Source: Parvibaculum sp.
GTDB taxonomy: Bacteria; Pseudomonadota; Alphaproteobacteria; Parvibaculales; Parvibaculaceae
Reading direction: 5' to 3'
Length of the DNA: 64,000 bases
NCBI RefSeq assembly: GCF_030694575.1
Contig: NZ_JAUYUS010000068.1
Span: 1,924-65,923 of the forward strand
Below, in pieces: positions 30,845 to 48,662 of this stretch. The notes below the pieces were generated by a model. That model saw only the letters and a list, made by a program, of their open reading frames with translations, searched no databases and was not told the origin of the DNA. A program made the position numbers and the translations under genes. How positions within the stretch are numbered: position 1 is the stretch's first letter; each line of letters begins with the position of its first letter.

Positions 30845-31273
30845 TCAATCGATATATTGCTCGTTGCCGACAAAGCCAATCTTCGTAACGCCGAGGCGCT
30901 GTGCCGCGGCCAAGACTTTTGCCACATGATCGTATTCGACCGTGCGGTCAGGACGGAGATGTATCTCCGGCTCGGGAACAGCGGTGGCTGCGGCGAAAAA
31001 CTTCTCTTCCAATGCCGAAATATCGCTCAGGCTTTCACCGTTCCAATACGCAACACCGTCCGCATCCACCGTGAGCTGAACGACCGACGGCTCCTGCGGC
31101 GGCGCTTCGAGCGTGACAGCCTGAGGCATATCGAGCTTGATCGCGTGAGTTTGCAGCGGGATCGTGATGATGAGCATGACGAGAAGCACGAGCATCACGT
31201 CGATCAATGGCGTGGTGTTGATCTCCATCATGGGATCGTCTTCGCTACCCTCGCTGCCAACGTTCATTGCCAT
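30845..31273 (-). CDS. exbD: ExbD/TolR biopolymer transporter
   Basis: EINTTPLIDVMLVLLVMLIIT. Confidence 0.93.
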   Translation of the reverse strand: MAMNVGSEGSEDDPMMEINTTPLIDVMLVLLVMLIITIPLQTHAIKLDMPQAVTLEAPPQEPSVVQLTVDADGVAYWNGESLSDISALEEKFFAAATAVPEPEIHLRPDRTVEYDHVAKVLAAAQRLGVTKIGFVGNEQYID

Positions 31274-31287
31274 GAGGCCATGTCCTT

Positions 31288-31713
31288 CTAGCTGCCTTGA
31301 ACCGGTTCGGTGATGAAACCCACTTTGTGAATCCCGGCCCGCTGGATATCGAGAATAAGTCTGCCCACGGACTCAAAGCGCGTCATCCGGTCGCCGCGAA
31401 CCTGAATTTCAGGTTGAGTATCTGCCTGCGCTGCCTCGATGAGTTTCTTCAGCATCTCCTCGCGGGTCTCCACACGAGACGCATTCCAGTAGTAATGCCC
31501 ATCAGCATCAACCGCGATGGTGATGTTCCTGGGTTCTGTCTGATTGATCTCGCTACTCGCCTTTGGCAACTCAACCGGAACAGTCTGGATCGCAACCGGA
31601 ATGGTGATCAGGAAGATGATCAGAAGCACCAGCATTACGTCGACAAGCGGCGTCGTGTTGATAGCCGACATCACTTCATCTTCATCGCCGTTGCTTGCTA
31701 CGTTCATTGCCAT
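31288..31713 (-). CDS. exbD: ExbD/TolR biopolymer transporter
   Basis: AINTTPLVDVMLVLLIIFLIT. Confidence 0.93.
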   Translation of the reverse strand: MAMNVASNGDEDEVMSAINTTPLVDVMLVLLIIFLITIPVAIQTVPVELPKASSEINQTEPRNITIAVDADGHYYWNASRVETREEMLKKLIEAAQADTQPEIQVRGDRMTRFESVGRLILDIQRAGIHKVGFITEPVQGS

Positions 31714-31752
31714 GATCGTGCCTCGGCTTGATTTCGTCTACCCGACATGAAC

Positions 31753-32637
31753 CTACGCGACCTTTCCGGACAGAATGCGCAGGTGAACTTCGGTCGCAAA
31801 GCGGCGCGCTCGCGAAACAACGGCTTTGTTGCGGCGCGTCAGCAGGTTGTATCCAAGCACCGCAGGGACGGCCACGGCGAGGCCGATCGCCGTCATGATC
31901 AATGCTTCGCCAACCGGACCGGCAACCTTGTCGATGGATGCCTGGCCGGACACGCCGATCGCAACGAGCGCGTGATAGATGCCCCAGACAGTGCCAAAAA
32001 GACCGACAAAAGGTGCGGTTGAACCAACCGTCGCCAACAGTGCAAGACCGCCCTGGAGCTTCGCCGTCAGCCCTTCTACGGATCGGCTCAGCGCTGCTGT
32101 TGACCAATCCGACAGGGTGACTTCGCTGCTCAATCCCCGCTTGAATTGCGCCACCGCTTCTTCGCCATCCTCCGCAACGACACGATAGGAGTTGCGCTTT
32201 GGCAGAGCTTCAATGCCCTCCTTCAACGTATCCGTGGGTGCGAAGAGTTTGATGACACGATTGAACTGATCGAACATTCGGCGCTGTTCGAAGAGCTTGG
32301 TAATCAAGACGTACCATGAGCCCATGGACATGAACGCAAGGATCATCAGTGTCGCTTTGGAAACGAAGTCCCCCTGCTCCCACAGAGCACCCAGCCCATA
32401 GGGATTTTGTTCAGCTGCCGATGCCGGTTCGGCCTCCGCTATCTCGGGCAAGCCTGTGGCCTCTCCGGTCGCCTCCGCCGCCGCTTCGCCTTCGACGGGC
32501 GTTTCGGCAACGGCAGGTGCGGTTTCCTCCTGAGCATGGGCCGGCGCGTGAGCAACAGCCAACCCGACAGCAAAGGTCAGCGCAAGCGCAGTTGCCCTGA
32601 GAATGGGGAAAGTAAAATTGCCTCGGATCTTCATCAC
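31753..32637 (-). CDS. exbB: ExbB/MotA/TolQ proton channel protein
   Basis: LATVGSTAPFVGLFGTVWGIYHAL..GPVGEALIMTAIGLAVAVPAV. Confidence 0.93.
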   Translation of the reverse strand: MMKIRGNFTFPILRATALALTFAVGLAVAHAPAHAQEETAPAVAETPVEGEAAAEATGEATGLPEIAEAEPASAAEQNPYGLGALWEQGDFVSKATLMILAFMSMGSWYVLITKLFEQRRMFDQFNRVIKLFAPTDTLKEGIEALPKRNSYRVVAEDGEEAVAQFKRGLSSEVTLSDWSTAALSRSVEGLTAKLQGGLALLATVGSTAPFVGLFGTVWGIYHALVAIGVSGQASIDKVAGPVGEALIMTAIGLAVAVPAVLGYNLLTRRNKAVVSRARRFATEVHLRILSGKVA

Positions 32638-32686
32638 TGGGGTCCTTTACTCGTCTTCTGGAATGTCATCTAGGAAAGCATCAGCT

Positions 32687-33304
32687 TCAGTCGGTCAGCT
32701 TGAACGTCACGGCGAACTTCATCCAATGTCCAACCGGCCTTCCGTCCAGCGTTGCCGGGGTGAAGCGCCATGTGCGTCTGGCATGCATGAGCGCTGTCTT
32801 GTCGAGACGCGGAAAGCCACTGGACGTATCGATCCGGCCGTCTGTCACTTTCCCGTCCTCGGATACGAAGAGGATGAGAATCACACGGCCTTCCTCTCCC
32901 GCGCGCCTCGACGCGGCGGGATAGGGCGGCTGGGTATTGCCGTGACTTGGATCCGCGCGCGGGAGGACCGGTTGCGGCTCACGGACAACTGGCACCGGAT
33001 CCGGTTTGACCGTCTGTACCTGCTGGATTGTTTTCTGCGGTGCCGGTGCAGGCTTCACTGCGACTTCCGGTGGCGGCACATAAGCTTCAGGCGGCTTCAC
33101 GATTTCGGGTGGCGGCGGCGGTGCTTCCTTGGACGGCTCCGCAATCAGCGCAACCTGCAGCGGCTGCTGAACGGCTTCCACGACATCGCGGGCAAGGCCA
33201 CTCACGAGTGCCCACAAAAGTAGAAGATGCAGGCCGATAACCACACCAAGCCCGACAACACGGCTCGACGCTGGATGACCTTCCTGGAAATCAAGCGTAC
33301 TCAT
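32687..33304 (-). CDS. tonB: Energy transducer TonB
   Basis: N-terminal TM with conserved His, Pro-rich linker, QPPYPAASRRAGEEGRV, SSGFPRLD. Confidence 0.92.
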   Translation of the reverse strand: MSTLDFQEGHPASSRVVGLGVVIGLHLLLLWALVSGLARDVVEAVQQPLQVALIAEPSKEAPPPPPEIVKPPEAYVPPPEVAVKPAPAPQKTIQQVQTVKPDPVPVVREPQPVLPRADPSHGNTQPPYPAASRRAGEEGRVILILFVSEDGKVTDGRIDTSSGFPRLDKTALMHARRTWRFTPATLDGRPVGHWMKFAVTFKLTD

Positions 33305-33365: not shown

Positions 33366-33381
33366 TGCACAACAGGTGCCA
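33366..33381 (-). promoter_or_regulatory. Sigma54-like -24/-12 promoter upstream of tonB
   Basis: Minus strand TGGCAC-CTGTT-GTGCA (GG-N10-GC), intergenic, about 60 bp before the tonB ATG. Confidence 0.5.
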
Positions 33382-33388
33382 GTTCATC

Positions 33389-33913
33389 TCATCGAACCTC
33401 AAGCCCGCCAACAGTCAGCTCGGCAAATGCACTTCGGTAATAGACCAGAGGCACCGGATTCGGATCGACGCTCGCGGCTCTGACCAAACCGACCAAAATC
33501 TCGTGATCCCCGCCCGCAAGACTGTCTTCGAGGTCACATTCTATTGCGGCGGCAACGCCATCGATGAGCGGCGCACCGTTTTGTCCGTCACGGTGAGAAA
33601 TACCCTCAAACTTGGCGCTGCCGTTTGCTTTCGAAAAGCAGGTGGCGATGTCGTCCTGACCTGCCGAAAGAATATTCACGGAGAAAAATCCTGCCCTTTT
33701 TATGTGCGCCAGCGTCTCGCTTTTCAGCGCCAGTGCGACAAGGACCAGCGGCGGCGTGAGTGACAGCGCTGAAAATGCGCTAACCGTCGTGCCTACAGGA
33801 GCGCCGGCTGCTTTTGTAGTGACCACCGTGACCCCCGTGGCAAAACTGCCAAGCGCGTTCCGGTATTCAGCCTGGTCGACAACGGATGGCACGTATCTGG
33901 ATGTCTGGCTCAT
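33389..33913 (-). CDS. Flavin reductase (RutF/HpaC-like)
   Basis: YRNALGSFATGVTVVT, SAFSALSLTPPLVLV, GGDHEILVG, PLVYYR. Confidence 0.92.
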   Translation of the reverse strand: MSQTSRYVPSVVDQAEYRNALGSFATGVTVVTTKAAGAPVGTTVSAFSALSLTPPLVLVALALKSETLAHIKRAGFFSVNILSAGQDDIATCFSKANGSAKFEGISHRDGQNGAPLIDGVAAAIECDLEDSLAGGDHEILVGLVRAASVDPNPVPLVYYRSAFAELTVGGLEVR

Positions 33914-33929
33914 AGCCCTTGCCTCCGCA

Positions 33930-35300
33930 TCAGAATGGATTGTCGCCGTAGACAGGCTTGTATGCTGTCCGGGATGCCCCTTCGGGCGCACGGCCACAGA
34001 CAGACAACGCCGTCAGCGCATATATCAAAGCGCTTTTCGCCAGATCGGCCGGCGTCGGCCGCCATCGAGGCATGCCGGTCGTGACAGCCGGGATACGGTG
34101 CATGTTGAAGACATTCTGGTCGCGCCACATGCTGGAATAGACCGGGTTCGCGCGCTGCAACGGCTCACGAAGCGTCAGTTCCGTTGCCGCGCCGACGGCG
34201 GCGACCAGAGGTGCCACATCCGTTGCATCGGCTTCAAATCCGTGGCGAACAACCATCGGCTCGATCTCAAAGCCTTCGATATCGAACCCGCGCATCAATG
34301 CGGTCAGTTCGTGCAGAACATCGGCCGCTTTCTGCTTCGGCGTTAGGCCCGCCTCGAAATAGATAGAAACGACTTCCGTGCCGGTGCCGAAGGAATAGGG
34401 AACGCCGGCCTTGATGGAGTCGATCTGTGTCTTCGGAACCGAGATGCCGCCGGCACTCTCATAATAGTTGCGCTCAGGATAGGTCTTTCCCCATTTGTGC
34501 AAGGCCTCGATGATAGGACCGAGCCGGTAAACCGGATTTGGGTGCTGGAGAATGTCGTCCGGGTAATCGAGAATTGGCGTGAATATTCCTTGCCCGAATA
34601 TTCGTATACGGAACACAACGTACCCACAGCCAACCCATGTCAGGCCGAAATCGCATCCCTCTGCAGCAATCGCATAATCCGGCGCCACACCGCCGTGATG
34701 AAACAGATAGTGCGCACCTATATCCTTGCCGAGGTAATCGACGCCGCGCCTGTCCTCTATTGGCTCCGGACCTATCTCACCCGGACATGCCGTGAGATAG
34801 AGCTTGCCCGCAAGCGGGATGTTCGCCTTGCGGAGCGCTTTCGCCGCTATCATGAAACAGCTCATCGGGCCCCGATCATTCGCGATCGGATAACCGAACA
34901 GTTTTCCATCTTCCAACCAACACTCCAGCCATTCGCGATTGGCGAGCGTCTCCGGCCGATACTTGGCGAAGTCGAGATCGGGCTCATAGGTCGGCGCTTC
35001 GGTGTCGAGATGTGCGGTGAAGAGGAGATTCGCGCCGGGAGCGTCGCCGCCATACTCGCCAATTACATTCTGACGTTCCGGCGTAGCTCCGACCGAACGG
35101 GGACTGAAACCTTCGCGCTGCATCCAGTCGAAGACATACTTGCTTGCAGCCGCCTCGTTCCGCGATGGGCTCGGGATATTTCCAAGTTCCAAAGCGAGGT
35201 TGCAGAGCTCGTCTTCGTCTATCGCCGCTTCGAGCGCAGCCCGATCTTCATCGGTCACCTGATAAGGCGCCTTGCCTTCAATTTTCAGAAGGTCAGCCAT
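33930..35300 (-). CDS. M20-family (ArgE/DapE-like) peptidase/deacylase, divergent
   Basis: IPSPSRNEA, NVIG..LLFTAHLDT, GYPIANDRGP, GEIG, AIAAEG. Confidence 0.75.
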   Translation of the reverse strand: MADLLKIEGKAPYQVTDEDRAALEAAIDEDELCNLALELGNIPSPSRNEAAASKYVFDWMQREGFSPRSVGATPERQNVIGEYGGDAPGANLLFTAHLDTEAPTYEPDLDFAKYRPETLANREWLECWLEDGKLFGYPIANDRGPMSCFMIAAKALRKANIPLAGKLYLTACPGEIGPEPIEDRRGVDYLGKDIGAHYLFHHGGVAPDYAIAAEGCDFGLTWVGCGYVVFRIRIFGQGIFTPILDYPDDILQHPNPVYRLGPIIEALHKWGKTYPERNYYESAGGISVPKTQIDSIKAGVPYSFGTGTEVVSIYFEAGLTPKQKAADVLHELTALMRGFDIEGFEIEPMVVRHGFEADATDVAPLVAAVGAATELTLREPLQRANPVYSSMWRDQNVFNMHRIPAVTTGMPRWRPTPADLAKSALIYALTALSVCGRAPEGASRTAYKPVYGDNPF

Positions 35301-35961
35301 TGACGCCTCCCCAGGAGGCTTCGATTTCCGCCGTTGCGCTCAGAATGGCGCAGTTGAGCTCCAGCATCCGCAACGCAGCACCGTGAACATCGTCGCCATA
35401 AGCGGCACAGGCATCCGCCGCGATGATGACGTGATAGTCCCGATGGAAGGCATCGCGAACCGTGCAGTCAATGCAGCATTCCGTAGTGAGGCCGCAGGCG
35501 ATGAGCGTGTCGACGCCGAGCTTCGCAAGCACCTCGGAAAAATCCGTGTCGTGGAAGGCGCTGTACTTTGGCTTCATCACGACCGGGTCCCCCGGGAGGG
35601 GTTGCGGCCCGTAAAACGCCGCACCCGGCATTCCGGCACGGCAGACTCCGCTTTCGGCCTCAGGATCGACACCACGCCGGCGCATGCGTTCGGTCCAGAC
35701 GGGCGAGTCCGTTTCTGGCCTCGTCTCGAGACCGACAAAAACGACCGCCACACCTGCCGCGCGGGCGGCCGCAACCAGCCTCTCGGCATTGGCGATCGCG
35801 GCAGGCACCGCACTCATATCGACGCCGAATCCGGCAAGCAGACCATCGGGTGCGGCGAAGTCGACCTGGATGTCGATCACACAAAGCGCCGTACGACCGG
35901 GCGCGATCCATTCCGCCAGACCGGTGGCGGCAGCGCGGCTTGTGAGGGGAACGGCTGTCAT
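35293..35961 (-). CDS. Cysteine hydrolase / isochorismatase family (RutB-like amidohydrolase)
   Basis: ALCVIDIQVDF, KPKYSAFHDT, GLTTECCIDCTVRDAF (Asp-Lys-Cys triad). Confidence 0.9.
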   Translation of the reverse strand: MTAVPLTSRAAATGLAEWIAPGRTALCVIDIQVDFAAPDGLLAGFGVDMSAVPAAIANAERLVAAARAAGVAVVFVGLETRPETDSPVWTERMRRRGVDPEAESGVCRAGMPGAAFYGPQPLPGDPVVMKPKYSAFHDTDFSEVLAKLGVDTLIACGLTTECCIDCTVRDAFHRDYHVIIAADACAAYGDDVHGAALRMLELNCAILSATAEIEASWGGVNG

Positions 35962-37025
35962 GAGAAGTATGCCTTCAGGCCCGGCAGAACCTCAGCGCCC
36001 ATCGTCTTCAATCCCTTGACGTAGTCCGGGAAAATCAGCATCACGCCATCGAGCTCGCAGCCTTCAATCTGCTCCTTGATCTTCTGCTGACAGGTGGCGG
36101 GTGTGCCGGCCACGGTGTGGGTCATGAAAGTTTCCTTGGCTTTCTCTCCCATCACGCTCGGGCTGCCGTCCACTTCCATGCCGTAGCTGCGCATCATTCC
36201 CTGCGCGGCGCCCCAGTCGAGACCTTCCTTGTAGTATGCGACCGTCTTCTCGGCCTCGGCGTCGGTTTCACCGAAAACGACGGTGCTCATCGCGAAGACC
36301 TTGATGGTGGTGTCGTGTTCGGTGGCAACGCGCCGCGCCATCCGGCTGATCCGCAGTGTATCTTCAGCCGTCTTGCCACCGATGAAGCAGGCATCGGTGT
36401 GCTGCACGGTGAAGCGCAAGCCCCTCTCCGACTGGCCGGCGCAGATCAGATAAGGGCGCGGACTGGAGACGGGCTTCGGCTGAGAAATGCAATCCTTGAA
36501 CTTGAAAAACTCACCGTCGTAGTCGACGTGATCCTTCTCCCACATCGTCTTGACGAGCGTCGTCCATTCCTCGGCGAAGCGATAGCGGCCATCGTGGTCG
36601 AGCGTTTCGGGCCAGGCGCCCATCTGGTCGAACTCGCTTTTGTAGGAGCCCGAGACGATGTTGAGGCCGGCGCGGCCGCCCGAAATCTGGTCGAGCGTCG
36701 CGATCATCTTGGCGACAACCGCAGGGTTCTGCAGCAGCGTATGAACGGTGGCGATGATGCGCGCATTCTTCGTCACCTCGGCGATGCCCGCCATCATGGT
36801 GACGGACTCGAGCGAAGTGCCCCAATGATCGGTGTCGCCGCCGAAGCCTCGCCACTTCATCATCGACATGATGAAATCGAGACCGATCTCGTCCGCCAGA
36901 ATGGCGATTTCGCGGTTCTGCCGGTAGGACGCATCGAGCGGGGGCGTGTTCTTCGAAATGATCCAGCCGCCATTGGCGATGGGAAGGAAGACACCGAACT
37001 GTTTCTTTGCCTCGGAGACGGACAT
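35958..37025 (-). CDS. LLM-class flavin-dependent monooxygenase, RutA-like
   Basis: FGVFLPIANGGWIIS, SMMKWRGFGG, LESVTMMAGIAEVT, EFDQMGAWP, ICAGQSERG parallel to pyrimidine monooxygenase RutA. Confidence 0.85.
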   Translation of the reverse strand: MSVSEAKKQFGVFLPIANGGWIISKNTPPLDASYRQNREIAILADEIGLDFIMSMMKWRGFGGDTDHWGTSLESVTMMAGIAEVTKNARIIATVHTLLQNPAVVAKMIATLDQISGGRAGLNIVSGSYKSEFDQMGAWPETLDHDGRYRFAEEWTTLVKTMWEKDHVDYDGEFFKFKDCISQPKPVSSPRPYLICAGQSERGLRFTVQHTDACFIGGKTAEDTLRISRMARRVATEHDTTIKVFAMSTVVFGETDAEAEKTVAYYKEGLDWGAAQGMMRSYGMEVDGSPSVMGEKAKETFMTHTVAGTPATCQQKIKEQIEGCELDGVMLIFPDYVKGLKTMGAEVLPGLKAYFS

Positions 37026-37085
37026 TTTCTTCTACTGACCTCTTGCTTGCCTTACTGAGCGGATCGCGGACCGATCGCTGATCTG

Positions 37086-38396
37086 TTAGTCGGCGACGTG
37101 ACCGAGGTCACCCGCCCGGGTGAGGATCGCCGCCGTCATGATTTCCTCTTCCTCGACCTCTTCCGCTTCCGCGCGGAGCGGCGGGCGCATGAACAGCACC
37201 GCGACCAGTACCGCTGCCGGCACCAGCGTGTAGAGAAAGAAGGCGTAGGAGAACGAGCCCGTGACGTCGCGCATGTAGCCGCCCAGGAAAGGACCAAAGG
37301 AAGCAAGCGTTGCTGCAACGTTCATGAAGGAGAACAGTTCGAGATAGGCACTGCGTCCATAGTAATTCATCAGCAGGACGCTCGTGGCGAGGAAGGTCAT
37401 GCCATAGCCAACGCCGATGCCGATGGCATAGACCATGAGAGCGAACCAGTTCGTACCAACGCCGAGCCCGACCATGCCCGCCACGAGAAGTGCAAGCGCC
37501 ACGATCAGCAGAATCTTTGGATCGACATATTCACCGATGAAGCCACTGACCGCTCGCGAGGCTGCATTGAGGAATGCCTCGAAGCTCAGAAGACCGCCAG
37601 CGACGCCCATGGCAATGCCGATCTCGGTCAGATGACCGACGGACAGACTGTTTACGGTGATCCCGCAAAGAAGGAACGCCACATAGCCAGCGGCAATAAT
37701 GTAAAATTGCGGCGTGCGAAGCGCCTGAAGAGCTGTCCAAGACTGCTTTGTAACATACACACCCGACGCGCTTTCAACCGCGGCCGCGGTGGCAACGTCG
37801 GCTGCGCGGCGATCCTCATCCTCGCCTTCGCGCAGGAAGGCGGCCGTGATCACGCCGGCAATCGCTGTGAGGACCGCGACGATCATCCAGTGCATCCTCC
37901 ATTCGTCCCAGACGCCGACGGCCAGGAAGTAGATCAACGGACCGACGATGCCGCCCACGCCGCCAATCGTGAAGTAGATGCCGAACGCCATCGACTGCTT
38001 CTTGAAGGAGCGAGCGATCATGAAAGTGCCGGGAACGGTGGCGACGAACGAGAAGCCCGTGCCCGCGAGCAACATGGCCGCAAAATAGGCCGGCACGCTC
38101 TGCACGAAATAGAGAAGGAGATAGCCGGCGACGAGAATGGCGGTGCCGAAGAGAATCGTCGCCCGCACGCCAAACCTGCGGATCATGAAAGCGGGGGGAT
38201 AGCTCGAAAGCCCGCAGGAAATACCGAGAATGGTGAAGCCGAGCCCGGCCGCCGTCCAGTCCCAACCCAGTTCGGAAACCATGTCGGGCAAGACGACACC
38301 GAGCGAGGTGAAGGTTCCCGCCGTGACGAGAAAGAACATGAAGCTGAAGGACAGCAGAACGAACCACGGATATATCGTCTCTTTCGCGTCGTTCAT
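37086..38396 (-). CDS. MFS transporter
   Basis: About 12 TM segments; MIRRFGVRATILFG; exact start uncertain (38396 or 38417). Confidence 0.88.
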   Translation of the reverse strand: MNDAKETIYPWFVLLSFSFMFFLVTAGTFTSLGVVLPDMVSELGWDWTAAGLGFTILGISCGLSSYPPAFMIRRFGVRATILFGTAILVAGYLLLYFVQSVPAYFAAMLLAGTGFSFVATVPGTFMIARSFKKQSMAFGIYFTIGGVGGIVGPLIYFLAVGVWDEWRMHWMIVAVLTAIAGVITAAFLREGEDEDRRAADVATAAAVESASGVYVTKQSWTALQALRTPQFYIIAAGYVAFLLCGITVNSLSVGHLTEIGIAMGVAGGLLSFEAFLNAASRAVSGFIGEYVDPKILLIVALALLVAGMVGLGVGTNWFALMVYAIGIGVGYGMTFLATSVLLMNYYGRSAYLELFSFMNVAATLASFGPFLGGYMRDVTGSFSYAFFLYTLVPAAVLVAVLFMRPPLRAEAEEVEEEEIMTAAILTRAGDLGHVAD

Positions 38397-38448
38397 CTGC
38401 TGGCCTCCAGACTTCATGCACTTCGGTTACTGATAGACGCTTCGGTAC

Positions 38449-40926
38449 TCAGAAGCGGTAGGTTGCCGTCACGCGCCACTCGCGGCCCTTGCCGGGCAGC
38501 ACAGCCACGTCGCCGTAGAGATCCTGGAGCGGCGTGAAGTATTCTTCGTCGAACACGTTGTCGATGTTGAGCGCCAGCCGCCATGTCTGGAAGTCCGCAT
38601 AGGCGGAGGCCTGGACGAGGAAGTAGTCGGGATACTTCACTGGATTGGACGCAAGACCGGCCGTCTCGGAAACGTAGCGCACGCCCCAGGTGGTGCCGGC
38701 ATGGCCCCAGTCGTAGGTATCGGTCGTATAGGTCGCGAAGAGGCTGAGAACCTTTTCGGGGATACGCCGATCTTCGATCTCGCCGGAGTAGTAGCTGTCG
38801 CCTGTGATGCCGGCGATTCCGCTGAAGGAATACCCGACAAGCGCGGCGCCGTAGTAATCGGCCGGGTCGTAGCCAAAGGTCGCCGGTGTGAAGTAGTAGA
38901 AGGCATCGTAGCTGCCGAGGAATTTCGTCTTCTGTACGTTGCCGGCAAAGGTGAAGCTGAGGTTGTCGGTCGCGAGATAGCGCAGCTCGAGTTCGACGCC
39001 CTCCCCTTCCGTTTCGTCTACGCCGCCGCCGACATTGTCGAGCACCGTGCGATGTTGACGATAGGCGGCGAGAGCACCGGTCAGCACACCGTTGAACGCT
39101 TCGAGTTTTATGCCCGCTTCGAGCAGATCACCTTCGGAAAGATATTCTCCCCTTCCGATGCTTTGGGGCGCTATGTCGCCGGCCTGGCCGAACTCAAGTG
39201 CCACGGTTTCGGCATAGGTCGCGTAGGGGCGGATTCCGAAGGGGCCGTTCACCATCAGCATCGCGCTGTAGGTAAAGGCTTCGTCCATATCGTGCTCACG
39301 ATCCGGAACGCAGTAGCAAAGAGAGCCGTTATCCACGGAATCCACCCAGTACATGTCGTACCGGCCGGTTGTCGTGAGGAAAACCAGGTTCTCGAAATCG
39401 AAATCGGCTATGCCGAAGAAGCCGAGATCGTTCCACTTGGAGTCCGTATTGTAGTCCCAGGTGTAGCCCGACCCGGGAATGAACGGCGATCCGAGCGTAT
39501 CGGTCGGCGTTGCCCCCTGAGAGAGGTCGCGGCGATCAAGCGCGATGCCACCATAGTTAAACGACTCCTTTTTGTTGGCGTCGTAATAGCGATTGCTCAT
39601 CCCGACATTGAACGCTGCCGTAACGGGCGCTTCCGAAGGGAGCTTGACGTCGAAATTGTAGCTGACGCGTCCCTCGACCGTGTAGGCGTTATAATCCGCA
39701 GGAAAGCCGTAGCTGACGAAGCGCTCGTTATCGAGCGAGTCGTAGAAGAGCTGGAATTTGAGTTCCGACCCGTTGCCGAAGGCTTTGATGAGGTCGCCAT
39801 ATATCGTCAGCGTCGACGACTCATTGAAATCGAGATCGCTGGTATAGACATTGCGCCGGCTGAGCTGCGTCGTCCCAACGCCGGTGTCCAACTGGCGATA
39901 GACAGGCAAGATATCGCACCCGCCAAAACATTGCGGAGCCCCGGTAAGTCCTCCGGGTGGCAACTCTCCTCTGTCGATGTAGCCATTGCCGTTGACGTCG
40001 ATGATGCCGGAATTGCTTCCGGTGATGTACGTACCGTTGTCGATCAGGTCTTGCGTGACGCGGTTCCAGCCCGGCGTCTGCAGGTAGCCTTCCGACTGGT
40101 AGTACATGACGCCGCCGCCATAGGTCCAACCGTCTAGCGTCTCGAATTGCGCGGTCGTCTGAAGGAGCTGATGCTGGGGCTCGATGCCGTGATAGAAACT
40201 TTCGGAATCCTCCAGCTCGCCATAGACGAAAACCCCGCCCGCGGTGTTACCGAAGTTGAGCGGAATGCCGGCCTCGAAGCTGCCATTCTTCTTGTCGTAA
40301 GAGCCGAGCGTGCCGGTCACCTGACCCGACATTTCGGTCATGTAACCTGCCTCTTCGCTGATCTTCGCGGTCTTCGGTTCGAGGTTGAGCAAACCGCCGA
40401 CCTTGCCCGGACCGAAATTCGCGGTCGGCGGGCCGCGCAGAATGTCGACGCGCGACGTCGCGCCGATCGGCGTCTGGTAGGTACCGCGATTTTCGATGCG
40501 CTTGAAGCCGTGGAAATAGGTTTCCGCCAGCAGGCCGCGTACATTGAGCGCGCCTTCCACACCATAGAAGGATGATGTGAAGGTGCCCGGCGAGACGGCG
40601 GCGAGATCGTCGACCGTCGTTACGCCGTAGGCGCTGAGCGTCTCGTCGCTCACGAAAGTTGCCGAACGCGGCGTTTTCAGCAGCGGCTTCTTCAGGCCGA
40701 AAAGCAGATCGCTTGGCTGCTGCTCCAGCAGACCCGCCTTGTCACGCTCGGAGATGACAAGCATCTCCCTCACCTTGGCGTCCCCGGCCGCGTCCGGTGT
40801 CGCTTCGACCACCGGAACCTCTTCAATCGCTTCCTGCGCCACTACGTTCACCGGAACGATGAACGCCGCGAGGATGACCCCCAGAGCCACTCGCGAGGCG
40901 GAATTCAAATAATGTGACTTGTTCAT
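38449..40926 (-). CDS. TonB-dependent receptor
   Basis: Signal peptide; LLKTPRSATFV plug start; RVDILRGP; NIDNVFDEEY..GREWRVTATYRF with terminal Phe. Confidence 0.93.
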   Translation of the reverse strand: MNKSHYLNSASRVALGVILAAFIVPVNVVAQEAIEEVPVVEATPDAAGDAKVREMLVISERDKAGLLEQQPSDLLFGLKKPLLKTPRSATFVSDETLSAYGVTTVDDLAAVSPGTFTSSFYGVEGALNVRGLLAETYFHGFKRIENRGTYQTPIGATSRVDILRGPPTANFGPGKVGGLLNLEPKTAKISEEAGYMTEMSGQVTGTLGSYDKKNGSFEAGIPLNFGNTAGGVFVYGELEDSESFYHGIEPQHQLLQTTAQFETLDGWTYGGGVMYYQSEGYLQTPGWNRVTQDLIDNGTYITGSNSGIIDVNGNGYIDRGELPPGGLTGAPQCFGGCDILPVYRQLDTGVGTTQLSRRNVYTSDLDFNESSTLTIYGDLIKAFGNGSELKFQLFYDSLDNERFVSYGFPADYNAYTVEGRVSYNFDVKLPSEAPVTAAFNVGMSNRYYDANKKESFNYGGIALDRRDLSQGATPTDTLGSPFIPGSGYTWDYNTDSKWNDLGFFGIADFDFENLVFLTTTGRYDMYWVDSVDNGSLCYCVPDREHDMDEAFTYSAMLMVNGPFGIRPYATYAETVALEFGQAGDIAPQSIGRGEYLSEGDLLEAGIKLEAFNGVLTGALAAYRQHRTVLDNVGGGVDETEGEGVELELRYLATDNLSFTFAGNVQKTKFLGSYDAFYYFTPATFGYDPADYYGAALVGYSFSGIAGITGDSYYSGEIEDRRIPEKVLSLFATYTTDTYDWGHAGTTWGVRYVSETAGLASNPVKYPDYFLVQASAYADFQTWRLALNIDNVFDEEYFTPLQDLYGDVAVLPGKGREWRVTATYRF

Positions 40927-40988
40927 GCTTGACGCCCCCAATCGCAGTACAAAGAAAGAGCTTGCTTCTTCGCAGATGCGATATCATT

Positions 40989-41004
40989 AGCAAGGCGCGT
41001 GCCA
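40989..41004 (-). promoter_or_regulatory. Sigma54 promoter for the TBDR-MFS-rut-like operon
   Basis: Minus strand TGGCAC-GCGCC-TTGCT is a full -24/-12 consensus, about 60 bp upstream of the TBDR start; AT-rich IHF-like tract just upstream. Confidence 0.8.
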
Positions 41005-41500: not shown

Positions 41501-42355
41501 ATGACCATCGATCTGCAGCTCCGCACTCGCCCGCTCATGCCGGGCTTCGGCGTGGAAATCTTCGAAACCGACCTGAAGACCGCCGGTGCTGATGCACGAC
41601 AGCAGGTCGTCGATCGCTTCCATGAGAATGGTGCGATACTTTTGCGCAATCAGGACATGACGCCGGACGACCTTATGTCGTTCATTGATCTTTTCGGCGA
41701 TCCTGAAGATCATACGCAGACGCAGTTCACGCTGCCCGGATATCCTAAGATATTTATTCTGTCCAACCGCATCGTCGACGGTCGATCGATAGGGGCGCAC
41801 AATGACGGTGTAGGCTGGCACACCGACTATTCCTACAAGGAAGAGCCGGTCATGTGCACGATGCTCTACGCAGTCGAAGTTCCGCCGGAAGGTAGCGACA
41901 CGCTGCTTGCAGACCTCTGCGCTGCATATAACGAACTTCCCGATGAGCGAAAGGCGCAGCTCGACAAGCTGATCCTTCATCACAGCTATCAGCACCTCAT
42001 GTCGACCCGCCAGTTTGGCCGGATGGAACTCAGCGATGAGATGAAAGCCGCCAATCCGGACGTCTATCACCCGCTTGTCCGCTCCCATCCCGCCGACGGA
42101 CGGAAAGCGCTGTGGGTCAGCACCGGCACCGTTAAGGGTATTGTCGGTATGGACGACGACGCGGCGCTGGCGCTTCTCGATGAACTCGTGGAGTTTGTCA
42201 CCAACGAACGGTTTGTCTACCGGCACAAATGGCAAGTCGGCGATATTCTCATGTGGGACAATCGCTGCACGTTGCACACAGGCACTGTCTTCGACGATAC
42301 GAAGTACATACGGCTGATGCATCGTTTGTGGGTCAAGGGTGACAAACCCTTCTAG
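41501..42355 (+). CDS. TauD/TfdA family Fe(II)/2-oxoglutarate dioxygenase
   Basis: GWHTDYSY, GSDTLLAD, MWDNRCTLH. Confidence 0.93.
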   Translation: MTIDLQLRTRPLMPGFGVEIFETDLKTAGADARQQVVDRFHENGAILLRNQDMTPDDLMSFIDLFGDPEDHTQTQFTLPGYPKIFILSNRIVDGRSIGAHNDGVGWHTDYSYKEEPVMCTMLYAVEVPPEGSDTLLADLCAAYNELPDERKAQLDKLILHHSYQHLMSTRQFGRMELSDEMKAANPDVYHPLVRSHPADGRKALWVSTGTVKGIVGMDDDAALALLDELVEFVTNERFVYRHKWQVGDILMWDNRCTLHTGTVFDDTKYIRLMHRLWVKGDKPF

Positions 42356-42387
42356 CGCGTCGTTTAACGCAAGAAAGACGAGGCGGT

Positions 42388-43239
42388 ATGCCCGAGAGGA
42401 AGCCGAGAGTCTGGTGGATCACCGGCGTAAGCAGTGGTCTTGGCAAGGCAATAGCTACGGCAGCACTTGATTGTGGCGACATCGTCGCCGGCACTGTCCG
42501 CCGCCAGAGCGATCTCGACGATTTCGAGGCGCAAGCGCCGGATCGTGCGCTGGGCTATATCCTCGACGTCACCGACGACAAAGTGGTTCATGCAACGGCG
42601 GCGGTGATCGAACAACGAACCGGCGGCGTCGATGTTCTCGTCAACAATGCGGGATACGGGCTCATCGGCGCTATCGAAGAAGCCAGCCCGGTGGAAATCC
42701 GGGCCCAGTTCGACGTCAACGTCTTCGGCGCCCTCAGCGTTATTCAAGCTGTGTTGCCTTCCATGCGCCGCCGCCGGCGCGGACACGTCATCAACATCAC
42801 ATCGGTAAGCGGGCTCGCTCCCTGGATGGGAACCGGCATATACGGCGCAACAAAGTACGCGCTGGAATGCATCGGCCAAACGCTAGCGGAGGAAGTCCGC
42901 CCTCTCGGGATTAAAGTAACGAATGTGGCTCCGGGCGGTTTACGCACCGATTTTGCCACGCGTTCGCTCACGCTCTGCCAGGCGGAGATCGCGGACTACA
43001 AACCGACTGCACACCTTGCCCGCAACATATTGTCCGGGCACGGCGGCAGCGAGGCCGGGGATCCCGACAAGGCCGCGCTGGCCGTGCTCAAGATCGCTCT
43101 GACCGACGAGCCGCCGCTGCATCTCCTTCTCGGTGCCGACGCCCTGCACTATGTCGGCCGAAAACTCGGTGCCTTCCACGCGGAGATAGCCGACTGGGCA
43201 CCCACCACCCTTTCCATCGGCTTCAACGAAACCACGTGA
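42388..43239 (+). CDS. SDR family oxidoreductase
   Basis: WWITGVSSGLG, LVNNAGYGLIGAIEE, YGATKYALE. Confidence 0.92.
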   Translation: MPERKPRVWWITGVSSGLGKAIATAALDCGDIVAGTVRRQSDLDDFEAQAPDRALGYILDVTDDKVVHATAAVIEQRTGGVDVLVNNAGYGLIGAIEEASPVEIRAQFDVNVFGALSVIQAVLPSMRRRRRGHVINITSVSGLAPWMGTGIYGATKYALECIGQTLAEEVRPLGIKVTNVAPGGLRTDFATRSLTLCQAEIADYKPTAHLARNILSGHGGSEAGDPDKAALAVLKIALTDEPPLHLLLGADALHYVGRKLGAFHAEIADWAPTTLSIGFNETT

Positions 43240-43266
43240 AAAAGGCGGCTCCATGCCGCCCTTTTT
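43239..43266. terminator. Bidirectional intrinsic terminator
   Basis: AAAAAGGCGGC-TCCAT-GCCGCCCTTTTT between convergent genes. Confidence 0.7.
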
Positions 43267-43290
43267 CATCTCGGAAAGATCGTGGTCCCG

Positions 43291-44106
43291 TCAGATGGGA
43301 CGTCGCGTTTCCGCTACCGTCACACGGTAACCGGAACGCACCTGCGGGAAGTAATCCCACACAGCCAGATGCCAGGTGCAGCGATTGTCCCAGAACGCCA
43401 CGGATTTCGGCTTCCAGCGGAAGCGAACGTGAAAATTCGGATTGGCGCAATGCTTGTAGAGCATTTCCAGCACGCCATCGCTTTCCGCTTTGCCAAGCCC
43501 CACGATTTCAGTCGTATAGGATGGATTGACGAAAATGCCCTTGCGGCCGGTTACCGGATGCGTGCGCACCACAGGGTGCGTATTGCATGGAAAGCGCTTG
43601 TTCGGATCGTTGACGATCGGCCGATACACATGCTCGCCGTCATGCACCGCGTGCAGGCCCTCGAGATAAATCTTCATACCCGGCGAGAGGGCGTCGTACG
43701 CGGCATACATGCTCGCGAACATTGTGTCGCCGCCGACCTCCGGTACAACAGGCAGATAGAGAATGCTGCCCATCGGTGGTATTTCGTTGCAGGTCAGGTC
43801 GGAGTGCCAGTTTTCGCCGGCGACAAACTTTGAGTTTCCGTCGGCATGGATGGCAACGATTTCAGGGTGGTCCGCCAGGCCGGCGACGCCGCTGTGAATG
43901 GCAAGCTCGCCGAAAGCCCCGCCAAGTTCCTTGTGCCGCACGTGGTCCAGATCCTGGTCGCGGAAGAAGATCACCTGATGCTCCATCAGGGCCGTATGAA
44001 GTTCGTCAATGACCTTGTTCGTCAGCGGCTCGGCGAGATTTATGCCTTCGATTTCAGCGCCGATACGCATGGTCATCGGCTTTACCTTCAAAACTTCGTA
44101 TTCCAT
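43291..44106 (-). CDS. TauD/TfdA family Fe(II)/2-oxoglutarate dioxygenase
   Basis: HQVIFFRDQ, WHSDLT, GGDTMFAS, HPVVRTHPVTGRK, FWDNRCTWH. Confidence 0.93.
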   Translation of the reverse strand: MEYEVLKVKPMTMRIGAEIEGINLAEPLTNKVIDELHTALMEHQVIFFRDQDLDHVRHKELGGAFGELAIHSGVAGLADHPEIVAIHADGNSKFVAGENWHSDLTCNEIPPMGSILYLPVVPEVGGDTMFASMYAAYDALSPGMKIYLEGLHAVHDGEHVYRPIVNDPNKRFPCNTHPVVRTHPVTGRKGIFVNPSYTTEIVGLGKAESDGVLEMLYKHCANPNFHVRFRWKPKSVAFWDNRCTWHLAVWDYFPQVRSGYRVTVAETRRPI

Positions 44107-44179
44107 CGCCCTGATCCTGCGAAACGCTCACTGGAGCTCTTACCGAGGGCATGACGATCACGCCCTATCCCAAACGCTA

Positions 44180-44195
44180 AACAAAAGCCGTGCCA
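44180..44195 (-). promoter_or_regulatory. Sigma54-like promoter upstream of the second TauD gene
   Basis: Minus strand TGGCAC-GGCTT-TTGTT; the -12 element is imperfect. Confidence 0.4.
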
Positions 44196-44240
44196 AAGGC
44201 TTGTCTGTGTGCGCCCAAGCACTTGATCGCCGCTCATTCC

Positions 44241-44849: not shown

Positions 44850-45170
44850 GAGTCTCGCCTTCCTGTTCGACTGACATGTCCAGCACCCGCCGGACCGGCA
44901 CTGAGGCTAGGCTCAGGAGGTCCCGGGTTCTTGCCTCTTTGCGTTCGATTGCTTTTCCCACGTAGATACAAGTTCCTGCCAATGCCACTTTTGCAGGCGG
45001 TCCGTCGCCGGTTTTCTAGGCAATGCGGTCACCGACGCGAGGCCTGAACAACAGTTTGGTCGCTCAATCACAAGAGCTCTCGTCTCTGTCGGCCTAATAT
45101 CGATGCTGGAAACAGAGGCCCAAATTTTGCGTCGCTCCCTTTCGGGAGGCAGATGATTGAGCGGAGTGCG

Positions 45171-46358: not shown

Positions 46359-46386
46359 CGACGAAATCATCGAGGCAGGACCACCG

Positions 46387-48479: not shown

Positions 48480-48492
48480 GGGCCCCTGCGGT

Positions 48493-48639: not shown

Positions 48640-48662
48640 GGTAACGAGTTGTGTGCGATCGA

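What the first reader, a model, noticed from the sequence alone, without database searches (positions are those of the whole stretch)
33389..41004. Non-canonical Rut-like operon with dedicated outer- and inner-membrane uptake
One tightly packed minus-strand run behind a consensus sigma54 promoter: TonB-dependent receptor, MFS, RutA-like flavin monooxygenase, RutB-like cysteine amidohydrolase, M20 hydrolase, RutF-like flavin reductase. The canonical E. coli rut pathway uses RutC/D/E, the RutG permease and RutR; none of these is in the window. An M20 enzyme sits in their place. The RutA-like sequence differs in conserved segments (SMMKWRGFGGDTDHW versus RutA SMIKLRGFGGKTEFW, from memory). This suggests a nitrogen-scavenging route for a different or larger N-heterocycle/amide that needs TBDR import.
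Basis: partly seen in the sequence, partly recalled or inferred. Interest (0 to 1): 0.8.

Follow-up and report, generated by a model that had tools for sequence, protein, structure and literature searches.

The report
Rut-like ring-stripping nitrogen-scavenging operon
A real, widely conserved but uncharacterised operon that imports an unknown nitrogen-rich ring compound and probably strips a uracil-type ring off an aromatic core in three enzyme steps to free ammonia; it is a relative of the E. coli uracil (Rut) pathway, not a copy.

Summary
Six tightly packed minus-strand genes lie behind an exact sigma54 motif: TonB-dependent receptor, MFS, RutA-like flavin monooxygenase, RutB-like cysteine hydrolase, an "M20" protein and a flavin reductase.

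- **Not RutA.** The monooxygenase scores 258 bits against a 498-bit cut-off and forms its own clade. It coexists with true RutA in 6 of 15 genomes that carry it.
- **No canonical Rut pathway.** This 100%-complete genome has no RutA, B, C, D, G or R.
- **New here.** The "M20" protein is a homologue of 5-nitroanthranilate aminohydrolase NaaA (profile E 1e-100, TM 0.82-0.89). NaaA hydrolytically removes an aryl amine ortho to a carboxylate.

The inferred sequence is oxidative amide cleavage, then ureido hydrolysis, then aryl-amine hydrolysis. That fits a uracil-type ring fused to an aromatic ring and would release CO2 and 2 NH3. It parallels LumH/I/M of the Nocardioides lumichrome pathway.

The core recurs in Alpha-, Beta- and Gammaproteobacteria. 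In many loci it sits with two TauD dioxygenases, an SDR, a Rieske oxygenase, a LigB-type dioxygenase, an FmdA amidase and an AraC regulator. The outer-membrane part is swappable (TonB receptor or Tsx-like channel). The sigma54 promoter is specific to Parvibaculaceae.

The substrate is unknown; flavin or lumichrome-type compounds are the leading untested candidates. This is a new variant of a known kind.

The parts
40990..41004 (-). sigma54-type promoter (-24 TGGCAC / -12 TTGC), 64 nt upstream of the TBDR ATG
   Evidence: Exact match to TGGCAC-N5-TTGC. A matching element lies 56-126 nt upstream of the TBDR in the 8 Parvibaculaceae relatives whose contigs reach it. It is absent in Caulobacter, Gamma- and Betaproteobacterial loci. 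The genome has rpoN and four enhancer-binding proteins.
38449..40926 (-). TonB-dependent outer-membrane receptor (ATG 40926; alternative TTG 40941)
   Evidence: Plug domain and TonB-siderophore-type C-terminus. Orthologues at 43-80% identity head the operon in 47 of 80 related loci. A Tsx-like channel replaces it in other lineages.
37086..38417 (-). MFS inner-membrane transporter
   Evidence: MFS_1. Orthologue adjacent to the LLM in 69 of 80 loci.
35958..37025 (-). RutA-paralogue FMN-dependent luciferase-like monooxygenase (P0001)
   Evidence: - RutA model 258 bits against cut-off 498; about 35% identity to RutA structures.
- Separate clade in the tree.
- RutA O2-pocket residues conserved; W139 becomes S/A.
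35293..35961 (-). Isochorismatase-family cysteine hydrolase (RutB/BiuH-like), overlaps LLM stop by 4 nt
   Evidence: Pfam Isochorismatase. BiuH 109 and RutB 91 bits, both far below cut-off. Nearest structures are biuret hydrolase and RutB. D30, K130 and C162/C163 are near-invariant (at least 97%) in 59 sequences.
33930..35300 (-). NaaA-type (5-nitroanthranilate aminohydrolase-like) M20-fold aminohydrolase (P0002), overlaps the hydrolase stop by 8 nt
   Evidence: - Profile against PDB 5K8M/5K8P: E 1e-100.
- BLASTP 37% identity over 415 aa, E 1e-89.
- AlphaFold model pLDDT 82.6; top 12 Foldseek hits are all NaaA at TM 0.77-0.89. The next M20 hit is at E 1e-21 and 16% identity.
33389..33913 (-). 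NAD(P)H:flavin reductase (RutF/HpaC class); start corrected to ATG 33913
   Evidence: Flavin_Reduct domain. RutF model only 76 bits against 255. GGAGG ribosome-binding site and ATG 16 nt after the upstream stop.
33367..33381 (-). second sigma54-like element (TGGCAC-N5-GTGC) before tonB
   Evidence: An NGGCAY-N5-NTGCA element sits in the same intergenic position in 5 of 6 Parvibaculaceae loci.
30845..33304 (-). TonB (32687-33304), ExbB (31753-32637), ExbD (31288-31713), second ExbD (30845-31273)
   Evidence: Pfam and NCBIfam hits. Found directly downstream of the operon in 6 of 9 Parvibaculaceae loci and in no other lineage.
41501..44849 (.). Conserved companions: TauD-family dioxygenase 1 (41501-42355 +), SDR (42388-43239 +), TauD-family dioxygenase 2 (43291-44106 -), FMN_red reductase (44241-44849 -)
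   Evidence: Pfam and NCBIfam hits. Orthologues lie next to the operon in Parvibaculum, Caulobacter, Phenylobacterium, Paraglaciecola, Halioxenophilus and Variovorax.
45153..51065 (+). Conserved companions: Rieske oxygenase alpha (45153-46358), LigB/YgiD-type extradiol dioxygenase (46387-47178), FmdA/AmdA-type amidase (about 47181-48479), AraC regulator fused to an FmdA domain (48651-51065)
   Evidence: NCBIfam and PDB hits. Co-located with the operon in Alpha- and Gammaproteobacteria despite shuffled gene order. An AraC orthologue lies directly beside the core operon in Pseudomonas, Variovorax, Pseudoduganella and Thalassolituus.

Best explanation
**What it is.** This is the core of an accessory catabolic and nitrogen-scavenging island for an N-heterocycle that carries a uracil-type (pyrimidine-2,4-dione) ring fused to an aromatic ring.

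**Proposed steps**
1. The substrate crosses the outer membrane through the TonB-dependent receptor. The adjacent TonB-ExbB-ExbD set, which has its own sigma54-like promoter, supplies the energy. The MFS carrier takes it across the inner membrane.
2. The flavin reductase supplies FMNH2 to the RutA-paralogue monooxygenase. That enzyme cleaves the ring amide oxidatively, by RutA-like flavin-N5-peroxide chemistry, giving an ortho-ureido aryl carboxylate.
3. The RutB/BiuH-like cysteine hydrolase removes the ureido group (CO2 + NH3), leaving an ortho-amino aryl carboxylate.
4. In a fused aromatic system that amine is stable. The 3-aminoacrylate of the uracil pathway is not. So an NaaA-type aminohydrolase replaces RutC/RutD and hydrolyses it to the ortho-hydroxy acid, releasing a second NH3.
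5. The companion genes (two TauD-type dioxygenases, SDR, Rieske oxygenase, LigB-type dioxygenase, FmdA amidase) would then process side chains and the remaining ring.

**Regulation.** In Parvibaculaceae the transport and enzyme operon is driven from a sigma54 promoter, probably by NtrC under nitrogen limitation.

**Shown:** gene families, homologies, synteny, promoter motifs and residue conservation.
**Inferred:** every catalytic step, the substrate class and the regulation.
For: **The LLM is a distinct RutA paralogue**
- 258 bits against cut-off 498.
- Scores are bimodal in other genomes: true RutA 679-705 bits, the paralogue 240-283 bits. Both are present in 6 of 15 genomes.
- It forms its own clade (SH-aLRT 89) apart from the branch holding true RutA, inside a 99%-supported RutA-like superclade.

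**RutA-type chemistry is plausible**
- T105, N134, V136 and F224 are conserved and L65 becomes M. These residues form the O2 pocket (PMC10005588, PMC7662398).
- W139, which borders the substrate cavity, becomes S/A, and Q140 becomes Y/F.

**The hydrolase looks active.** Its Asp-Lys-Cys positions are near-invariant (at least 97%) in 59 sequences.

**The third enzyme is NaaA-like**. NaaA hydrolytically deaminates 5-nitroanthranilate to 5-nitrosalicylate (PMC10306065, PMC11903332).

**The core recurs as a unit**
- LLM, hydrolase and NaaA-like genes are adjacent in 51 of 80 species-level loci across three proteobacterial classes.
- In Pseudomonas sp. ADAK13 the core forms a self-contained six-gene operon with an AraC regulator.

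**A characterised pathway uses the same logic.** Removal of the lumichrome pyrimidine ring by LumH, LumI and LumM goes through ring opening, urea-moiety hydrolysis and amidine hydrolysis (PMC12746152).

**Nitrogen control fits**
- Sigma54 elements are conserved before the TBDR and before tonB in Parvibaculaceae.
- The genome has rpoN and only four enhancer-binding proteins.

**No canonical Rut genes** are present that could complement the operon.
Against: - No biochemical, genetic or expression data exist for any member, and no RNA runs were available.
- NaaA identity is only 37%. NaaA's R289 is replaced by T/A in this family, so the reaction type is extrapolated.
- The hydrolase is no closer to RutB than to biuret hydrolase.
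- In Xenorhabdus, Photorhabdus and Erwinia the LLM occurs with only the channel and the MFS, without the two hydrolases. The LLM product therefore does not always need them.
- The sigma54 promoter is absent outside Parvibaculaceae, so nitrogen control may not be general.
- Homology of the two hydrolases to LumI and LumM could not be tested, because no sequences or accessions were found in the paper's main text or its one held supplementary file.
Confidence: 0.55

Rival explanations
1. It is a functional uracil/thymine (Rut) pathway with replaced downstream enzymes. The LLM cleaves uracil, the hydrolase cleaves ureidoacrylate, and the M20-fold enzyme stands in for RutC/RutD.
For: RutA is the best-scoring named family for the LLM, and RutB and RutF are among the hits for their partners. 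The O2-pocket residues are conserved. This genome has no other Rut pathway and no RutG-type uracil permease. The E. coli rut operon is also sigma54/NtrC-dependent (PMC7662398; established knowledge).
Against: - All three scores are far below the equivalog cut-offs.
- The LLM forms a separate clade.
- 6 of 15 carrier genomes also keep a true RutA.
- W139 and Q140 at the substrate cavity are replaced.
- 3-aminoacrylate needs no metallo-aminohydrolase, since RutC or spontaneous hydrolysis is enough (PMC8113886).
- The Rieske, extradiol dioxygenase and FmdA companion genes have no role in uracil breakdown.
Confidence: 0.1
2. The substrate is a non-fused cyclic ureide, imide or substituted monocyclic pyrimidine or nucleoside (for example orotate-like, 5- or 6-substituted uracils, or modified nucleosides). 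The NaaA-like enzyme would then hydrolyse a stabilised enamine or an amide.
For: Tsx-like nucleoside-type channels replace the TBDR in several lineages. The amino-C=C-carboxylate motif that NaaA attacks also exists in substituted aminoacrylates (inference). The hydrolase is equally close to biuret hydrolase.
Against: NaaA is the only characterised relative and acts on an aromatic amine. The conserved Rieske plus LigB-type dioxygenase pair implies an aromatic ring to cleave. In Xenorhabdus and Photorhabdus the cluster sits beside a second, divergent lumazine/riboflavin-binding paralogue.
Confidence: 0.2
3. It is a sulfur-starvation island. TauD-type dioxygenases, an SsuE-like FMN reductase and an SfnG/SsuD-like LLM would scavenge sulfonates or sulfones, with a TBDR as for sulfate esters and sigma54 control as for sfn genes in Pseudomonas.
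For: TauD2 is fairly close to taurine dioxygenase (253 bits against 313; 200 bits to E. coli TauD). SfnG is the LLM's second-best family at 170 bits. An FMN_red gene is adjacent.
Against: The LLM is much closer to RutA (258 against 170 bits) and lies in the RutA-like superclade. The core partners are two C-N hydrolases and an amidase, which have no role in desulfonation. In Pseudomonas the core operon stands alone without any TauD.
Confidence: 0.04
4. The genes are merely juxtaposed and do not form one pathway or one transcript.
For: No transcript data exist. Terminator-like hairpins are predicted inside the region at near-background frequency (20 against 13.7 expected).
Against: There are 4- and 8-nt overlaps and gaps of 60 nt or less. 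The same gene order recurs across three proteobacterial classes.
Confidence: 0.03

Closest known systems
E. coli Rut pathway (rutABCDEFG, b1012 operon; NtrC/sigma54-controlled uracil/thymine nitrogen scavenging)
   Same: - A two-component LLM monooxygenase plus flavin reductase, followed by an isochorismatase-family hydrolase.
- The O2-pocket residues of RutA are conserved.
- A sigma54 promoter (in Parvibaculaceae).
- The likely purpose is release of ring nitrogen as ammonia.
   Different: - The LLM, hydrolase and reductase all fail the RutA, RutB and RutF equivalog cut-offs, and the LLM is a separate clade.
- No RutC, RutD, RutG or RutR is present.
- An NaaA-type aminohydrolase is added.
- Uptake is through a TBDR or Tsx-like channel plus an MFS carrier.
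- The operon is embedded in an island with TauD, SDR, Rieske, LigB-type dioxygenase, FmdA and AraC genes.
- It coexists with a true rut operon in some genomes.
Lumichrome catabolic cluster lumA-Y of Nocardioides simplex (Sinha et al. 2025, PMC12746152), steps LumH/LumI/LumM
   Same: - Three-step removal of a fused uracil-type ring: ring opening, ureido hydrolysis (LumI, 24 kDa), then amidine or aryl-amine hydrolysis (LumM, 52 kDa). This gives an ortho-hydroxy heteroaryl carboxylate plus CO2 and 2 NH3.
- The two hydrolases here are of similar size (222 and 456 aa).
- Later steps use a Rieske oxygenase and an extradiol dioxygenase, with oxamate or oxamide-type nitrogen release.
   Different: - Ring opening here is predicted to be oxidative (RutA-like), not hydrolytic (LumH, 80 kDa).
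- None of the island genes annotated here (29.1-51.1 kb) is a P450, a TPP decarboxylase or a xanthine-oxidase-type enzyme.
- The island has TauD-type dioxygenases instead.
- The hosts are Gram-negative and have outer-membrane uptake.
- Sequence homology to the Lum proteins could not be tested.
5-nitroanthranilate aminohydrolase NaaA of Bradyrhizobium sp. JS329 (PDB 5K8M-5K8P)
   Same: The same M20-derived fold and family (37% identity, TM up to 0.89). The HxD, E-rich and SMWRD motifs are shared.
   Different: - R289 of NaaA is T/A here.
- NaaA has Cys where this family keeps the M20 bridging Asp (NDRG).
- The genomic context is different: NaaA works with a cupin 5-nitrosalicylate dioxygenase, not with an LLM and a cysteine hydrolase.
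Stadtman's Pseudomonas RF riboflavin route ('path 3' in PMC12746152; genes never identified)
   Same: The pyrimidine (C) ring of the flavin is degraded first. The side chain is then removed and the quinoxalinedione is cleaved, releasing oxamide and urea. The island's gene content (ring-stripping core, hydroxylases, Rieske and extradiol dioxygenases, FmdA-type amidases) could cover such steps.
   Different: This is purely a match of chemical logic. There is no sequence, strain or assay link.

Membership tests
RutA, pyrimidine monooxygenase (NCBIfam TIGR03612 equivalog) | Score at or above the curated cut-off (498.3 bits) | tested here: not met
   258.1 bits. True RutA in other genomes scores 679-705 bits and the paralogues 240-283 bits.
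RutA, pyrimidine monooxygenase (NCBIfam TIGR03612 equivalog) | Groups with bona fide RutA in a phylogeny | tested here: not met
   The 24 clade members form one group (SH-aLRT 89). It is separate from the 34-row branch (SH-aLRT 96) in which the six true RutA are nested.
RutA, pyrimidine monooxygenase (NCBIfam TIGR03612 equivalog) | O2-pocket residues for flavin-N5-peroxide chemistry (T105, N134, V136, F224, L65) | tested here: met
   T93, N122, V124 and F214 are invariant in the clade, and L65 becomes M53. W139 becomes S/A and Q140 becomes Y/F at the substrate side (residues from PMC10005588 and PMC7662398).
RutA, pyrimidine monooxygenase (NCBIfam TIGR03612 equivalog) | Cleaves uracil/thymine N3-C4 | not testable with these tools
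   Needs an enzyme assay.
Canonical Rut pathway (rutABCDEFG + RutR) | RutB and RutF equivalogs | tested here: not met
   RutB model 91.5 bits against 378. RutF model 75.8 bits against 254.75. No other RutB-like gene is in the genome.
Canonical Rut pathway (rutABCDEFG + RutR) | RutC, RutD, RutG and RutR present | tested here: not met
   RutC: no match. RutD: only generic alpha/beta hydrolases at 54 bits or less. RutG: no match. RutR: 51 bits or less against 368.
Canonical Rut pathway (rutABCDEFG + RutR) | RutE-type malonic semialdehyde reductase linked to the operon | tested here: not met
   One RutE-family gene (318 bits, above the cut-off) exists, but on another contig (C120), not in the window.
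Canonical Rut pathway (rutABCDEFG + RutR) | sigma54 (NtrC-type) promoter | tested here: met
   Exact -24/-12 motif, conserved in Parvibaculaceae only. Activity was not tested.
Isochorismatase-like cysteine hydrolases (PF00857) | Domain match and Asp-Lys-Cys catalytic positions | tested here: met
   153.9 bits. D30, K130 and C162/C163 are near-invariant (at least 97%) in 59 sequences. The assignment of the triad to these positions rests on family knowledge.
NaaA-type aminohydrolases (M20-derived; PDB 5K8M-5K8P) | Full-length sequence and fold similarity to NaaA, clearly above other M20 enzymes | tested here: met
   Profile E 1.4e-100 against the next hit at 1e-4. 37% identity. TM 0.77-0.89 against 0.51-0.78 for other M20 enzymes.
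NaaA-type aminohydrolases (M20-derived; PDB 5K8M-5K8P) | NaaA residue R289 (mutated in the intermediate-trapping structure 5K8P) | tested here: not met
   Aligned to T306 here and T/A across the family. This implies a different substrate.
NaaA-type aminohydrolases (M20-derived; PDB 5K8M-5K8P) | Hydrolytic deamination of an aryl amine | not testable with these tools
   Needs an enzyme assay.
TonB-dependent receptors | Plug domain plus C-terminal barrel, with an energising TonB-ExbBD system | tested here: met
   Plug 44.5 bits. TonB-siderophore model 104 bits over the C-terminus, below the subfamily cut-off. TonB, ExbB and two ExbD genes lie directly downstream.
Lumichrome (Lum) pathway of Nocardioides simplex | Homology of the two hydrolases to LumI and LumM | not testable with these tools
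   No sequences or accessions were found in the paper's main text or its one held supplementary file.
Lumichrome (Lum) pathway of Nocardioides simplex | P450 LumU, TPP decarboxylase LumK/L and xanthine-oxidase LumJ present | tested here: not met
   None of the annotated island genes between 29.1 and 51.1 kb belongs to these families. The rest of the genome was not searched for them.

The most novel reading that the evidence does not exclude
The island would be the long-missing gene set for an oxidative, 'C-ring-first' flavin (riboflavin, lumichrome or lumazine) catabolic route of Gram-negative bacteria, the route Stadtman described in Pseudomonas RF.

- A RutA-type flavoenzyme would use FMN-N5-peroxide to cut open the uracil ring of another flavin.
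- A RutB-like hydrolase and an NaaA-like aminohydrolase would then act.
- TauD-type hydroxylases and an SDR would remove or oxidise side chains.
- A Rieske and LigB-type dioxygenase pair would open the quinoxaline.
- FmdA amidases would release the last nitrogens from oxamide or oxamate.

It would be the first vitamin-B2 scavenging system with dedicated outer-membrane uptake.
Probability: 0.25. Interest if true: 0.8.

Novelty: new variant of a known kind. Interest (0 to 1): 0.6.

Why it matters
RutA-type flavin-N5-peroxide amide cleavage is so far known for uracil and thymine only. A second, widespread clade with its own hydrolase set would extend that chemistry to other heterocycles. Carriers include Caulobacter, Parvibaculum, Alteromonadaceae, Pseudomonas, Variovorax, Xenorhabdus and Photorhabdus.

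It would also give NaaA, until now a curiosity of nitroaromatic degradation, a physiological family role.

If the substrate is a flavin or lumazine, this would identify the unknown Gram-negative route of vitamin B2 and lumichrome turnover. Lumichrome is a plant and quorum-sensing signal.

The core is compact (six genes plus an AraC regulator in Pseudomonas sp. ADAK13), so the question can be tested directly.

Tried and rejected
- **RNA evidence for co-transcription.** Only DNA metagenomes hold the sequence. The single metatranscriptome listed shares none of its words.
- **Riboswitches or other RNA elements.** None were found in the window or in four related loci.
- **Literature.** Searches for a characterised RutA paralogue, or for this gene combination, found nothing.
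- **Direct test of LumI/LumM homology.** I found no sequences or accessions in the paper's main text or its one held supplementary file. A search seeded with NaaA returned no Nocardioides entries among the top 120.
- **Sulfur-scavenging reading.** Considered because of TauD, SfnG-like and FMN_red hits. Rejected on gene content and LLM phylogeny.
- **The remaining sigma54 motif hits.** The TauD2-upstream site (44181-44195) lacks the -12 GC, and no matching element turned up in the relatives; my scan pattern required that GC, so it could not have detected a copy of this site. The hits at 10620, 24566 and 34212 are at chance level.
- **The ORF at 30740-31291 (+).** It is an antisense shadow of the second exbD.
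- **purEK and lpxH next to the Xenorhabdus cluster.** Judged to be housekeeping synteny, not a functional link.


Full report
**1. Observation**

| Gene | Coordinates | Key evidence |
|---|---|---|
| TonB-dependent receptor | 38449-40926 | Plug domain, TonB-siderophore C-terminus |
| MFS transporter | 37086-38417 | MFS_1 |
| Luciferase-like monooxygenase (LLM) | 35958-37025 | Best named family RutA |
| Isochorismatase-family hydrolase | 35293-35961 | BiuH and RutB hits, both far below cut-off |
| M20-like protein | 33930-35300 | Only weak ArgE/DapE hits |
| Flavin reductase | 33389-33913 | Flavin_Reduct |

- The gaps are 31, 60 and 16 nt and two junctions overlap by 4 and 8 nt. The flavin reductase start is better placed at the ATG at 33913, behind a GGAGG.
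- An exact TGGCAC-N5-TTGC lies at 40990-41004, 64 nt before the receptor's ATG.
- Motif counts over the whole window are at chance level. This site, however, recurs at the same place in the 8 Parvibaculaceae relatives whose contigs reach it, with a varying spacer sequence.
- The peptide comparison quoted from memory is correct.

**2. Not the canonical Rut pathway**

- The LLM scores 258 bits on the RutA model (cut-off 498), the hydrolase 91 bits on RutB (cut-off 378) and the reductase 76 bits on RutF (cut-off 255).
- The genome is Parvibaculum-like, 3.8 Mb and 100% complete. It has no true RutA, RutB, RutC, RutD, RutG or RutR. Its only RutE-family nitroreductase is on another contig.
- In 15 other genomes that carry the paralogue, RutA-model scores are bimodal: 679-705 bits for true RutA and 240-283 bits for the paralogue. 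Six genomes have both.
- In a maximum-likelihood tree of 128 sequences the paralogues form their own group. It is separate from the branch in which true RutA is nested, inside a well-supported RutA-like superclade.

**3. What the enzymes suggest**

- *Monooxygenase.* Residues that shape RutA's O2 pocket (T105, N134, V136, F224; PMC10005588, PMC7662398) are invariant in the paralogue clade, and L65 becomes Met. W139 and Q140, which border the substrate cavity, are replaced by Ser/Ala and Tyr/Phe. RutA-like amide oxygenolysis on a different substrate, probably a bulkier one, is therefore plausible.
- *Hydrolase.* Its Asp, Lys and Cys positions are near-invariant (at least 97%) in 59 sequences.
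- *The "M20" protein.* This is the decisive new result. A profile of 17 orthologues hits 5-nitroanthranilate aminohydrolase NaaA at E 1e-100, and the next PDB hit is at 1e-4. Pairwise identity is 37% over 415 residues. An AlphaFold model (pLDDT 82.6) matches NaaA structures at TM 0.77-0.89, far ahead of DapE/ArgE-type M20 enzymes.
- NaaA hydrolytically replaces an aromatic amine ortho to a carboxylate by hydroxyl (PMC10306065, PMC11903332).

**4. Inferred mechanism**

The three enzymes in series read as follows:

1. Oxidative opening of a uracil-type ring gives an ortho-ureido carboxylate.
2. Ureido hydrolysis gives an ortho-amino carboxylate plus CO2 and NH3.
3. Hydrolytic deamination gives the ortho-hydroxy acid and a second NH3.

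In the uracil pathway the corresponding amine, 3-aminoacrylate, is unstable and RutC is enough (PMC8113886). A dedicated NaaA-type enzyme makes sense only if the amine is aromatic, that is, if the uracil-type ring is fused to an aromatic ring.

The same three-step logic has been shown biochemically for the pyrimidine ring of 7-carboxylumichrome in Nocardioides simplex (PMC12746152):

- LumH opens the ring, there by hydrolysis.
- LumI (24 kDa) removes the urea moiety.
- LumM (52 kDa) hydrolyses the amidine.

All steps proposed here are inference; none was assayed.

**5. Conservation and context**

Among 80 species-level loci holding the LLM clade, orthologues at 40% identity or more lie nearby as follows:

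| Neighbour | Loci out of 80 |
|---|---|
| MFS | 69 |
| Cysteine hydrolase | 58 |
| NaaA-like | 51 |
| TBDR | 47 |
| TauD-family dioxygenase 2 | 45 |
| Flavin reductase | 35 |
| TauD-family dioxygenase 1 | 35 |
| Rieske oxygenase | 33 |
| SDR | 30 |
| LigB/YgiD-type dioxygenase | 30 |
| FmdA-type amidase | 20 |

- Many of the contigs are truncated, so these counts are lower bounds.
- The set stays together although gene order differs between Caulobacteraceae, Parvibaculaceae and Alteromonadales.
- An AraC regulator is a regular partner. Here, and in Paraglaciecola, it is fused to an FmdA domain.
- In Pseudomonas sp. ADAK13 the core stands alone: Tsx-like channel, MFS, LLM, hydrolase, NaaA-like protein and reductase, with a divergent AraC.
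- Orthologous Tsx-like channels also replace the TBDR in Variovorax, Thalassolituus, Erwinia, Tenebrionibacter, Xenorhabdus and Photorhabdus. The outer-membrane component is thus interchangeable, and a TonB receptor does not imply a large substrate.
- The adjacent TonB-ExbB-ExbD-ExbD genes, and a conserved sigma54-like element in front of tonB, are specific to Parvibaculaceae.
- Within the genus only 7 of 25 species genomes carry the NaaA-like gene, and none of 16 other families sampled in the class does. This fits an accessory, horizontally moved island and the lower G+C of 24-56 kb.

**6. Regulation**

- The genome has rpoN and only four true enhancer-binding proteins. Two lie about 4 kb apart on one contig, which would fit an ntrBC-ntrYX arrangement; I did not inspect the locus.
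- NtrC control of the two conserved sigma54 promoters is the simplest reading, but it is an inference.
- Outside Parvibaculaceae no sigma54 motif precedes the operon, and the AraC partner is the likely specific regulator there.

**7. Substrate**

The substrate is unknown. Several points favour flavin, lumichrome or lumazine-type compounds:

- The match to the Lum logic.
- A Rieske oxygenase plus extradiol dioxygenase and FmdA-type amidases, which could deal with a quinoxaline and its oxamide or oxamate nitrogen. Stadtman's Pseudomonas RF route has no known genes.
- In Xenorhabdus and Photorhabdus the Tsx-MFS-LLM cluster sits divergently beside a second, more divergent riboflavin-synthase/lumazine-binding paralogue. 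The housekeeping copy lies elsewhere.

Points against:

- That adjacency is a single evolutionary event.
- None of the island genes annotated here (29.1-51.1 kb) is a P450, a TPP decarboxylase or a molybdenum hydroxylase.
- No riboswitch is present.

Xanthine-type purines, pteridinediones and quinazolinediones remain possible. Earlier AI notes on related islands reached a similar guess. I treat them as leads only; the NaaA result and the Lum_binding paralogue were obtained here independently.

**8. Verdict**

- The system is an uncharacterised variant of the Rut theme with a defined, testable three-enzyme core.
- My confidence in the class-level mechanism is about 0.55, and in a flavin-type substrate about 0.25-0.3.

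Noticed in passing
window 48651-51065 (+); L057 and L069 about 3640-5980: The AraC regulator fused to a full FmdA/AmdA amidase domain is conserved full-length (58% identity, 99% coverage) in Paraglaciecola. In Caulobacter the AraC and the amidase are separate neighbouring genes. This suggests a ligand-sensing pseudo-enzyme or trigger-enzyme regulator for the island.
   Followed up: partly
L012 6862-7473 (-), and 13 other Xenorhabdus, Photorhabdus and Enterobacteriaceae loci: A second, divergent riboflavin-synthase-like gene (two Lum_binding domains, 66-70 bits against 80-85 for the housekeeping copy) lies divergently next to the Tsx-MFS-LLM cluster. The genomes therefore hold two such genes, whereas the others checked hold one or none.
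   Followed up: partly
window about 24000-56000: G+C drops to 0.57-0.61 against 0.63-0.66 in the flanks. The NaaA-like gene is present in only 7 of 25 congeneric species genomes. The whole block behaves as an accessory island.
   Followed up: partly
window 24475-30379 (-): An RND efflux set lies directly downstream of the exbD genes: an unannotated 482-aa ORF at 24475-25923, a 1045-aa ORF at 25920-29057 that I provisionally labelled RND, and a Pfam-confirmed HlyD-type membrane-fusion protein at 29108-30379. It is not conserved with the island in other lineages.
   Followed up: no
window 30740-31291 (+): This 183-aa ORF has no family hit. It is the antisense shadow of the second exbD (30845-31273, -), and its 'homologues' in relatives lie on the opposite strand of that gene.
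   Followed up: yes
G001 and G012 (Caulobacter genomes of L052 and L063): Each of these genomes carries two copies of the RutA-paralogue LLM in addition to a true RutA. This hints at further sub-specialisation within the clade.
   Followed up: no
L040, L066, L067 (Caulobacter, including C. vibrioides DSM 9893); L036, L037, L049 (Aliiglaciecola, Paraglaciecola): These are reduced versions of the cluster. Caulobacter loci L040, L066 and L067 keep the LLM plus hydrolase only. L036, L037 and L049 keep TBDR, MFS, LLM and hydrolase without the NaaA-like gene.
   Followed up: no
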